A DNA stretch of 64,000 nt, taken from Trypanosoma brucei. Its lineage: Eukaryota. The stretch lies in the NCBI GenBank assembly GCA_000002445.1, contig CP000071.1:1696001-1760000 (forward strand), read 5' to 3'. How positions within the stretch are numbered: position 1 is the stretch's first letter; each line of letters starts with the position of its first letter. Of the stretch, positions 40,177 through 41,091 are shown piece after piece. The notes under the pieces were generated by a model. It was not told where the DNA came from, did not search any database, and was given only the letters and a program-made list of their open reading frames with translations. A program made the translations under genes and the position numbers.

Positions 40177-41091
40177 ATGCTTCCCGTGTCCTGCGCGCTC
40201 ACTGCCTTCGTGTTCACATACGTGTCGGCGCTGGATGCGATGGTCGCAACCTCGCAACTCACTGGAGGTCAGCACCGGAGGGAAGTTGTTAAGAGCAACT
40301 GCACCAAAGCGCTAAAGTTGGCTCAGCTCAGCAAAAGCGCGGTTGCGTTAAGCGGCAAAGCTTCAGCGCTTGCATCAGCTGCGAATGAGGTGTGGACAAG
40401 AACCGATGCCATAAAACAAAGTGGCGAGGAAACCCTTCAGGATGCTAATGATAACGCACAAATCATAGCCCACCACAACGTCGGCGGTCGAGGGGGTGGA
40501 GAACGCGCATATGCCGCTTTTCTTCGTGTGGATGCGGCTTTTGAGGAACTTCGAGGTGCCGTGAAGAATGTGTGGCTGCTCAAACAAAAAACGGTGAAGC
40601 ATGCCTTAGCAGCGGAACAAAGGGCAAACGTGACACAAGAAAGAGCTCATGCCTCACTGTCAACTGCCTTGTCACATATAAAAGCAACCACCACAGGTGG
40701 AGCAGATCCAGAGGAGGGCCAGCTCGCGAATAATTGCTTGAAGGAAGTCGATCTGCTTCTTTCCAAAAATACAACGACGGTAATTGCGGCATCTGAATTC
40801 GAAGCCGATAAAATTTTTAAAAATTGCTACCCAGAAGTAGTAAATGCTTTCGTGGAGACTGATGGGTTACTGAATAATGCCACTGAGGCGAAAGAACGGC
40901 TTGACGCAGCCGAAAATGAGGCTCGCGTGAAGGCAAAGAAAGTACGGGACGCAGCACGGGACGCAGAGGTGCTGGCTGCGGGGGGAAACAAATCATCGAA
41001 CCAATGTAACCTTGTCTGGAGGTTGGGGTTTATGTTGTTTGTGGTGGTTTGTTTCACAACACTGGGATTAGAGTCAGAGGAAACCGCCTGA
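40177..41091 (+). CDS. alanine-rich, predicted alpha-helical type-I membrane/surface glycoprotein (signal peptide, 5 N-glycosylation sequons, C-terminal TM with a short acidic tail)
   Basis: It has an N-terminal signal peptide (MLPVSCALTAFVFTYVSALDA) and about 15% Ala with a helical heptad-like character. Sequons are NCT, NVT, NTT, NAT and NKS, and there are four Cys. The C-terminal hydrophobic segment (LVWRLGFMLFVVVCFTTLGL) is followed by ESEETA. This is reminiscent of trypanosome helical-bundle surface proteins of the GARP/BARP/HpHbR type, but I see no direct match. Confidence 0.5.
   Translation: MLPVSCALTAFVFTYVSALDAMVATSQLTGGQHRREVVKSNCTKALKLAQLSKSAVALSGKASALASAANEVWTRTDAIKQSGEETLQDANDNAQIIAHHNVGGRGGGERAYAAFLRVDAAFEELRGAVKNVWLLKQKTVKHALAAEQRANVTQERAHASLSTALSHIKATTTGGADPEEGQLANNCLKEVDLLLSKNTTTVIAASEFEADKIFKNCYPEVVNAFVETDGLLNNATEAKERLDAAENEARVKAKKVRDAARDAEVLAAGGNKSSNQCNLVWRLGFMLFVVVCFTTLGLESEETA

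What the first reader, a model, noticed from the sequence alone, without database searches (positions are those of the whole stretch)
40177..41091. Alanine-rich helical type-I membrane glycoprotein embedded in a housekeeping gene cluster
The protein has a signal peptide, about 15% Ala with a helical character, five N-glycosylation sequons and four cysteines. A single C-terminal hydrophobic span is followed by a short acidic tail (ESEETA), which favours a TM anchor over a GPI signal. This composition is reminiscent of the trypanosome three-helix-bundle surface proteins (the GARP/BARP/haptoglobin-haemoglobin-receptor fold), yet it sits among core housekeeping genes (ASF1, sedlin, MAPKK, cullin) and is immediately followed by the GC-rich desert. 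It could be a lineage-specific surface receptor or a fast-evolving gene.
Basis: partly seen in the sequence, partly recalled or inferred. Interest (0 to 1): 0.6.

Follow-up and report, generated by a model that had tools for sequence, protein, structure and literature searches.

The report
Known orphan trypanosome three-helix surface protein
The ORF is the Trypanosoma brucei gene Tb927.8.5910, a real bloodstream-stage membrane protein whose predicted shape matches the parasite's haptoglobin-haemoglobin receptor family; others have already noted this in print, and what it binds is still unknown.

Summary
Window 40177-41091(+) encodes a 304-aa protein with 16.4% Ala, against 7.5% in neighbouring genes. 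It has five N-x-S/T sequons, an N-terminal signal-like segment, and a C-terminal hydrophobic stretch followed by ESEETA.

The sequence is identical to Tb927.8.5910 (Q57YJ2), annotated "T. brucei spp.-specific protein".

Two papers already cover this gene. Gadelha 2015 found it about 160-fold enriched in the bloodstream-form surface-labelled proteome. Moloney 2023 found it only in bloodstream forms, in secretory/endocytic fractions, and listed it as a predicted HpHbR/FHR-like bundle.

Two things are new here:
- A syntenic, about 30%-identical, frameshifted T. congolense copy, so the gene is not brucei-specific.

The ligand and function remain unknown. The finding is real and correctly interpreted, but already known.

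The parts
40067..40145 (+). Polypyrimidine tract and first downstream AG (40144-40145). This is the probable trans-splice acceptor, about 30 nt upstream of the ATG.
   Evidence: Read directly from the sequence. That it serves as the splice acceptor is inferred from the general kinetoplastid gene structure and was not tested.
40177..41091 (+). Complete CDS of Tb927.8.5910 (304 aa plus stop).
   Evidence: ORF listing and translation. Exact identity to AAZ13355.1 / XP_847421.1 / Q57YJ2 and to T. equiperdum SCU64564.1. Peptides were detected in bloodstream forms.
40177..40239 (+). Signal peptide, about residues 1-21. The likely cleavage site is after VSA(18) or LDA(21).
   Evidence: Hydrophobic N-terminus. 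SignalP-HMM p=0.997 and signal-anchor p=0.001, reported for Tb427.08.5910 by Gadelha 2015. This segment has low pLDDT and lies outside the bundle. The exact cleavage site is inferred.
40261..40476 (+). Helix 1 (residues 29-100). It carries conserved C42, the N41 sequon and the conserved QDAND motif (88-92).
   Evidence: AF2 DSSP. Tb/Tco alignment.
40477..40494 (+). Gly-rich turn (residues 101-106, within HNVGGRGGGE) between helix 1 and helix 2. It is inferred to lie at the membrane-proximal end.
   Evidence: AF2 models. The orientation is inferred from the C-terminal anchor and the up-down-up topology.
40495..40695 (+). Helix 2 (residues 107-173). Its first half is the best-conserved block (50% identity to T. 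congolense, with FLRVDAAFE invariant). The N151 sequon is conserved.
40696..40830 (+). Putative membrane-distal head (residues 174-218): a 19-residue helix, a loop and two short helices. It carries C187 (conserved), C217 and the N198 sequon. This is among the most divergent regions (18% identity to T. congolense); helix 3 is lower still at 15-18%.
40831..40986 (+). Helix 3 (residues 219-270), running back towards the membrane. It carries the N234 sequon.
40987..41088 (+). C-terminal membrane-attachment signal (residues 271-304). It comprises a small-residue and polar stretch GGNKSSNQC(N), the hydrophobic LVWRLGFMLFVVVCFTTLGL (279-298) and the acidic tail ESEETA (299-304). It is either a GPI-addition signal or a short TM anchor.
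   Evidence: Hydropathy. PredGPI 1-FPR 0.95 and TMHMM 0 TM. The T. congolense orthologue ends ...TQGCTILYLAPVCLAVLYLGFLRYF* with no tail.

Best explanation
The ORF is Tb927.8.5910. It encodes a low-abundance, N-glycosylated invariant membrane protein of bloodstream-form T. brucei.

Shown or predicted: after signal-peptide removal, the roughly 245-residue ectodomain folds as an elongated three-helix bundle. Helix 1 runs down, helix 2 runs up, a small head of short helices sits at the membrane-distal end, and helix 3 runs down. The architecture and length match the T. congolense haptoglobin-haemoglobin receptor.

Inferred, with probabilities:
- The protein is attached by its C-terminus, more likely through a GPI anchor (about 0.65) than through a short TM helix with a 6-residue tail.
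- It sits on the cell surface, in the flagellar pocket or in endosomes, beneath or among the VSG coat.
- By analogy with every characterised member of this fold (HpHbR, FHR, ISG65, and the newly reported C3bBb receptor), it most likely binds a host macromolecule through the membrane-distal half of the bundle.

The ligand is unknown. The gene is confined to T. brucei-group species and T. congolense, evolves fast, and lies at a synteny breakpoint as the last gene before a 5.3-kb gene-free stretch.
For: Identity: exact match to Tb927.8.5910 / Q57YJ2.

Fold:
- The AF2 single-sequence model has pLDDT 83 and pTM 0.70.
- The ectodomain-only model has pLDDT 89.2 and pTM 0.78, with all five models at 85.7-89.2.
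- Foldseek against PDB puts only trypanosome bundle proteins in the top 10. TcoHpHbR 4e40 scores E 5e-6 to 8e-6 with TM 0.70/0.71 over 246 vs 245 residues. TbHpHbR, MISP, FHR, GARP and ISG65 follow.

Location and expression:
- Gadelha 2015 'Surfeome': 159.8-fold enrichment, 24 PSMs, SignalP 0.997, PredGPI 1-FPR 0.95, 0 TM.
- Moloney 2023: found only in bloodstream forms, in secretory/endocytic 1-3 fractions, and listed as a three-helical bundle like HpHbR and FHR.

Anchor: the T. congolense orthologue ends in a hydrophobic tail with no hydrophilic extension.

Evolution:
- Only the Trypanozoon cluster and the T. congolense ORF turn up among 1.84 billion representatives and 5.8 billion clusters.
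- Syntenic position right after sedlin in T. congolense.
- Two cysteines (C42, C187) and the N151 sequon are conserved in the ectodomain.
Against: - There is no sequence-level homology to any solved bundle protein or any Pfam family. Family assignment rests on predicted fold only.
- AF2 was trained on the HpHbR and GARP structures, and three of the five full-length single-sequence models were poor.
- PredGPI 0.95 is weak. The same value is given to an RNA polymerase subunit and a helicase in the same table.
- The gene does not appear in the held supplement text of the big-PI-based receptor screen of Macleod 2020.
- The acidic tail is atypical for a GPI signal.
- No fluoresceinated peptide was recorded, and hyperLOPIT says 'secretory/endocytic' rather than strictly surface.
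- No ligand is known. A 2026 screen of 37 putative surface proteins against complement found no new binder apart from Tb927.11.1470. Whether this gene was in the panel could not be read, because the table is an image.
Confidence: 0.65

Rival explanations
1. One reading: a type-I transmembrane glycoprotein with a single C-terminal TM helix and a 6-residue acidic cytoplasmic tail, i.e. ISG-like topology rather than GPI-anchored.
For: The Kyte-Doolittle 19-residue window peaks at 1.96 over residues 279-298. This stretch is followed by ESEETA rather than ending the protein. PredGPI 1-FPR of 0.95 is below that program's usual confidence classes (the class thresholds are my recollection) and equals the value given to obvious non-GPI proteins in the same table. 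AF2 continues helix 3 straight into this segment. ISG65, which is TM-anchored, is among the structural matches.
Against: TMHMM predicted 0 TM helices. R283 interrupts the stretch, leaving 16 uncharged residues. The T. congolense orthologue has no tail at all. The tail has no lysines and is far shorter than ISG tails (established knowledge). The four closest structural relatives are GPI-anchored (established knowledge). From my recollection, untested here, short hydrophilic ends occur on some genuine GPI signals.
Confidence: 0.3
2. An internal secretory-pathway or endosomal/lysosomal resident, or a secreted protein. It would have been picked up in the surface proteome as a contaminant or transient cargo, and would not be a surface receptor.
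For: HyperLOPIT assigns it to 'secretory/endocytic 1-3', not specifically to the plasma membrane. No fluorescein-modified peptide was recorded. The surface-enriched list also contains clear intracellular contaminants such as RPC11, a DEAD-box helicase and Sec31. No localisation entry was found in the held TrypTag supplement text.
Against: The 160-fold enrichment over controls is similar to that of HpHbR (230-fold), itself a low-abundance flagellar-pocket receptor. The fold is so far seen only in surface proteins of these parasites. The signal peptide plus C-terminal anchor signal fits a surface protein.
Confidence: 0.15
3. The fold match is a by-product of composition. On this view the protein is a generic Ala-rich helical or coiled-coil protein, and AlphaFold and the structure searches converge on trypanosome bundles only because those are long antiparallel helices.
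Confidence: 0.08

Closest known systems
Haptoglobin-haemoglobin receptor (HpHbR) of T. congolense and T. brucei (PDB 4e40, 5jdo, 4x0j, 4wjg, 5hu6)
   Different: Sequence identity is only 15-17% and there is no HMM-detectable homology. It lies at a different locus. No evidence bears on Hb or HpHb binding. The C-terminal signal carries an acidic tail. HpHbR scores 0.998 with PredGPI against 0.95 here.
Factor H receptor (FHR, Tb927.5.4020; PDB 6xz6), MISP (5vtl) and GARP/BARP (2y44)
   Different: Those proteins are shorter (183-213 ordered residues), belong to multi-copy or stage-specific insect-form families, and are recognisable by sequence as a family. Tb927.8.5910 is single-copy and detected in bloodstream forms only. 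No Pfam family matches it, even at E<=10.
ISG65 (complement C3 receptor; PDB 7pi6, 8ovb) and the newly reported C3bBb receptor Tb927.11.1470
   Same: Both are invariant bloodstream-form surface proteins built on a three-helix bundle that bind host proteins.

Membership tests
Trypanosome three-helical-bundle surface protein superfamily (HpHbR / GARP / BARP / MISP / FHR / ISG65) | N-terminal ER signal peptide | tested here: met
   Hydrophobic residues 1-26. Published SignalP-HMM p=0.997 and signal-anchor p=0.001.
Trypanosome three-helical-bundle surface protein superfamily (HpHbR / GARP / BARP / MISP / FHR / ISG65) | Elongated antiparallel three-helix bundle with a small membrane-distal head | tested here: met
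Trypanosome three-helical-bundle surface protein superfamily (HpHbR / GARP / BARP / MISP / FHR / ISG65) | C-terminal membrane attachment (GPI signal or TM helix) | tested here: met
   Hydrophobic residues 279-298. The anchor type is inconclusive: PredGPI 0.95 and TMHMM 0, and the T. congolense copy has a tail-less hydrophobic end.
Trypanosome three-helical-bundle surface protein superfamily (HpHbR / GARP / BARP / MISP / FHR / ISG65) | Located at the cell surface or flagellar pocket | not testable with these tools
   The literature supports this without proving it: 160-fold enrichment in the surface-labelled proteome and hyperLOPIT secretory/endocytic fractions in bloodstream forms only. No microscopy was found.
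Trypanosome three-helical-bundle surface protein superfamily (HpHbR / GARP / BARP / MISP / FHR / ISG65) | Detectable sequence homology to a family member or a family HMM | tested here: not met
   No Pfam hit at E<=10 apart from noise. No PDB sequence hit with the single sequence, a profile or the conserved block. Exhaustive HMMER finds only the orthologues.
Haptoglobin-haemoglobin receptor (functional family) | Binds haemoglobin or haptoglobin-haemoglobin | not testable with these tools
   No data found. Structural similarity alone does not predict the ligand, since FHR, ISG65 and C3bBbR share the fold and bind different proteins.
Invariant surface glycoproteins (ISG65/ISG75 type-I TM family) | Clear TM helix followed by a cytoplasmic tail with lysines | tested here: not met
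   The tail is ESEETA, 6 residues with no Lys. TMHMM gives 0 TM.

The most novel reading that the evidence does not exclude
Tb927.8.5910 is a functional bloodstream-form receptor, HpHbR-like in shape, for a host macromolecule that has not yet been identified, such as a serum nutrient carrier or an immune effector outside the complement components already screened. It would have arisen at a synteny breakpoint in the common ancestor of T. brucei and T. congolense. Its unusual acid-tailed C-terminal signal would give it an anchoring or sorting behaviour distinct from the classical GPI receptors.
Probability: 0.3. Interest if true: 0.6.

Novelty: already known. Interest (0 to 1): 0.3.

Why it matters
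Invariant receptors beneath the VSG coat are the few fixed points on the bloodstream trypanosome surface. HpHbR underlies human innate immunity through uptake of trypanolytic factor, and ISG65, FHR and C3bBbR mediate complement evasion. ISG75 and other surface proteins mediate drug uptake. An uncharacterised single-copy member of the same fold, detected only in bloodstream forms and conserved across T. brucei subspecies, is a reasonable candidate for a new host-parasite interaction or for a vaccine or drug-delivery target.

The gene, its surface-proteome detection and its predicted fold are already in the literature. The value of this check is therefore confirmation plus three small corrections:
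- The gene is not brucei-specific.
- The anchor type is open and leans GPI.
- The membrane-proximal start of helix 2 is the conserved part, while the head and helix 3 diverge.

Tried and rejected
- Pfam on the protein: noise only.
- PDB sequence searches with the single sequence, a 4-sequence profile and the conserved 74-residue block: nothing relevant.
- Word-indexed and exhaustive protein searches: only the Trypanozoon cluster and one T. congolense ORF.
- The AFDB50 Foldseek library was unavailable, so AlphaFold-DB paralogues such as Tb927.5.4630 and Tb927.7.4690 could not be compared.
- Full-text literature searches for Tb927.8.5910 and alias identifiers gave zero main-text hits.
- Held supplement text had no entry in Jackson 2013, TrypTag, the structure-based annotation paper PMC12047770 or Macleod 2020.
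- The Cook 2026 panel table is an image, so panel membership is unknown.
- The bacterial promoter/terminator scan is irrelevant to a kinetoplastid and was disregarded.
- tRNA and Rfam scans of the window and of the gap found nothing above threshold.
- Six-frame Pfam of the GC-rich block found no retroelement or other domain.
- The idea that the gene replaced, or derives from, the 6PGL-like gene at this position in T. vivax and T. conorhini was rejected: there is no similarity.
- The idea that the ORF is a chance reading frame was rejected on peptide evidence and on the conserved orthologue.

Full report
**1. What is there**

Window 40177-41091 on the + strand is an uninterrupted ATG-to-TGA reading frame of 304 codons.
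- Ala is 16.4%.
- There are five N-x-S/T sequons, at N41, N151, N198, N234 and N271.
- There are six cysteines. Four lie between the two hydrophobic ends (C42, C187, C217, C277). One is in the N-terminal hydrophobic segment and one in the C-terminal one.
- The N-terminal hydrophobic segment covers residues 1-26.
- The C-terminal hydrophobic segment is LVWRLGFMLFVVVCFTTLGL (279-298), followed by ESEETA.

Ala content is more than twice the mean of the other 20 long ORFs in the window (7.5%) and is the highest of all. The sequon count is only modestly above composition-matched shuffles (2.3 expected, P=0.06). A polypyrimidine tract ending in an AG at 40144-40145 precedes the ATG, as expected for a trans-spliced kinetoplastid gene (read). 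All long ORFs in the window are on the + strand.

**2. Identity**

The protein is letter-for-letter identical to T. brucei TREU927 Tb927.8.5910 (AAZ13355.1, XP_847421.1, UniProt Q57YJ2) and to T. equiperdum TEOVI_000673100. Sources name it 'T. brucei spp.-specific protein' or 'hypothetical protein'. The T. b. gambiense copy differs at 9 of 304 residues, and a Logan-assembled strain differs at 3.

**3. Relatives by sequence**

There is no Pfam family and no PDB sequence match, whether with the single sequence, a profile or the conserved block. The word-indexed search of 5.8 billion clusters finds only its own cluster. The exhaustive HMMER pass over 1.84 billion representatives adds a single protein, P0008 from T. 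congolense IL3000 (E 7.5e-10). A profile search adds nothing further.

**4. Synteny and the T. congolense copy**

I fetched the loci around the sedlin orthologues. In T. congolense, the gene immediately after sedlin is P0008, a 304-codon ORF. It aligns to residues 13-170 of the T. brucei protein at 33% identity (pairwise E 7e-17).

That ORF is mis-modelled in two ways:
- Its first 82 codons precede a much better start, MIVRGHAVGLLLAVVARCLAPG..., which looks like a signal peptide.
- Homology stops at about L003:2400, where the rest of the protein continues in another frame down to ...TQGCTILYLAPVCLAVLYLGFLRYF*.

Joining the two frames gives a 309-aa protein that aligns end to end with the T. 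brucei protein at 27% identity (31% over 182 residues by BLASTP, E 2e-19). The frameshift may be a draft-assembly error or a real lesion, and I could not tell which. Either way, the 'brucei-specific' label is inaccurate. The adjacent sedlin is 85% identical between the two species, so this gene evolves much faster than its neighbours.

In T. vivax and T. conorhini, a 6-phosphogluconolactonase-like gene sits after sedlin instead. It is followed by a convergent strand switch in T. vivax or an RHS gene in T. conorhini. There is no cross-similarity to the T. brucei gene or to its downstream neighbours. The gene therefore sits at a synteny breakpoint and appears confined to the T. brucei plus T. 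congolense lineage.

**5. Fold**

AlphaFold2 on the single full-length sequence gave pLDDT 83 and pTM 0.70. Helices span 29-100, 107-173 and 178-196, then two short helices, then 219-297. Three of the five models were poor.

I re-ran only the ectodomain (residues 27-272) with the two admissible homologues. This gave pLDDT 89.2 and pTM 0.78, and all five models fell between 85.7 and 89.2.

Structure searches gave a consistent answer:
- Foldseek against the PDB, with either model, places only trypanosome surface proteins in the top ten. T. congolense HpHbR 4e40 scores E 5e-6 to 8e-6, with TM 0.70/0.71 over 246 vs 245 residues. T. brucei HpHbR, MISP, FHR, GARP and ISG65 follow.

Sequence identity in these superpositions is 9-17%. 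The assignment is therefore to a fold class, not to a sequence family.

**6. Conservation mapped on the model**

[quoted passage not shown] Both flank the Gly-rich turn, which by topology should be membrane-proximal. The head (174-218) and helix 3 are the most divergent, at 15-18%. C42, C187 and C277 and the N151 sequon are conserved. A C42-C187 disulfide tying the N-terminus of helix 1 to the head is a reasonable inference, but I had no model coordinates to check it.

**7. What the literature already says**

- Gadelha et al. 2015 (PMC4587319) list Tb427.08.5910 (= Tb927.8.5910) in their bloodstream-form 'Surfeome'. The entry shows 24 PSMs, 4 peptides, 13.2% coverage, 159.8-fold enrichment over controls, SignalP 0.997, signal anchor 0.001, PredGPI 1-FPR 0.95, 0 TM helices, and no cell-surface-phylome family. 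HpHbR is 230-fold enriched in the same table.
- Moloney et al. 2023 (PMC10361982) describe 27 proteins in orthogroups specific to T. brucei, or to T. brucei plus T. congolense, that were found only in bloodstream forms in secretory/endocytic fractions. [quoted passage not shown] - Macleod et al. 2020 screened the genome with big-PI plus fold prediction for such receptors. This gene does not occur in the held supplement text.
- Cook et al. 2026 (bioRxiv) screened 37 putative surface proteins against complement components. They found a new bundle receptor, Tb927.11.1470. Their panel table is an image, so I cannot tell whether this protein was included.
- No paper in the library mentions the gene in its main text.

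**8. Anchor type**

Several points argue against that:
- TMHMM predicts 0 TM helices.
- An arginine sits inside the hydrophobic run, leaving 16 uncharged residues.
- A run of small residues (AAGGNKSS) lies 8-12 residues upstream, where an omega site would be.
- The T. congolense orthologue has a tail-less hydrophobic end.
- HpHbR, FHR, MISP and GARP are GPI-anchored (established knowledge).

Some points favour it:
- The PredGPI value is weak and is shared with obvious non-GPI proteins in the same table.
- The gene was seemingly missed by a big-PI screen.
- Three acidic residues follow the hydrophobic stretch.

I put GPI at about 0.65 and TM at about 0.3. This needs an experiment.

**9. Mechanism**

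Shown:
- The protein is real and was detected only in bloodstream forms in the one study comparing stages.
- It is enriched by surface labelling.
- It has a signal peptide and a C-terminal anchor signal.

Predicted with good confidence: an HpHbR-like three-helix bundle.

Inferred:
- It stands on the surface or in the flagellar pocket with its head outward.
- Like every characterised protein of this fold, it binds a host macromolecule through the distal half of the bundle.

Nothing identifies the ligand. Fold similarity to HpHbR does not imply haem-protein binding, because FHR, ISG65 and C3bBbR use the same scaffold for unrelated ligands.

**10. Surroundings**

The 5.3 kb after the gene contains no convincing ORF. 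It has no Pfam domain in six frames, no tRNA or Rfam family, and no similarity to the other species' loci. Its first half (41.6-44.4 kb) is 57-60% GC and C-rich on the + strand. From about 44.4 kb the + strand turns G/T-rich. A head-to-tail boundary between transcription units is a plausible reading, but I did not test it.

**11. Verdict**

Its anchor sub-claim is doubtful. The whole picture is already in print, so novelty is 'already known'. Residual interest lies in the unknown ligand.

Noticed in passing
window 41600-44400 (and on to 46416): This is a gene-free 5.3-kb stretch after the gene. Its first 2.8 kb is 57-60% GC and C-rich on the + strand, with a poly-C/CA run at 41783-41824 and a 31-bp inverted repeat at 43445-43475 / 43543-43573. 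From about 44.4 kb to 49 kb the + strand becomes G/T-rich (GC skew +0.1 to +0.22). There is no Pfam domain in six frames, no Rfam or tRNA, and no similarity to the T. congolense, T. vivax or T. conorhini loci. It may be a head-to-tail transcription-unit boundary, but it remains unexplained.
   Followed up: partly
L004 10639-11481 (T. vivax); L005 7335-8129 and 8373-8915 (T. conorhini): In T. vivax and T. conorhini the gene after sedlin is a 6-phosphogluconolactonase-like (Glucosamine_iso) gene. It is followed by a convergent strand switch in T. vivax or an RHS_N gene in T. conorhini. Neither these genes nor the T. brucei downstream genes cross-match, so the position after sedlin is a synteny breakpoint.
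   Followed up: partly
L003 1607-2778 (T. congolense IL3000 contig CAEQ01001014.1): The deposited 304-aa ORF (P0008, 'unnamed protein product') is extended by 82 codons at the 5' end and frameshifted near position 2400. The C-terminal 125 residues, including a tail-less hydrophobic end, are in another frame. I could not decide whether this is an assembly error or a pseudogene.
   Followed up: partly
window 40177-41091 vs P0003 and L002: T. b. gambiense differs from TREU927 at 9 of 304 residues, and another strain (ERR7929157) differs at 3 residues plus 4 synonymous sites. That seems a lot of amino-acid change for such close relatives, but there are too few sites for a dN/dS test.
   Followed up: no
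window 20123-32797: A 4224-codon ORF on the + strand. T. vivax has a roughly 4250-residue counterpart upstream of the same L17 / eIF1A / ASF1 / sedlin run, with no Pfam hit on record. It was not examined.
   Followed up: no
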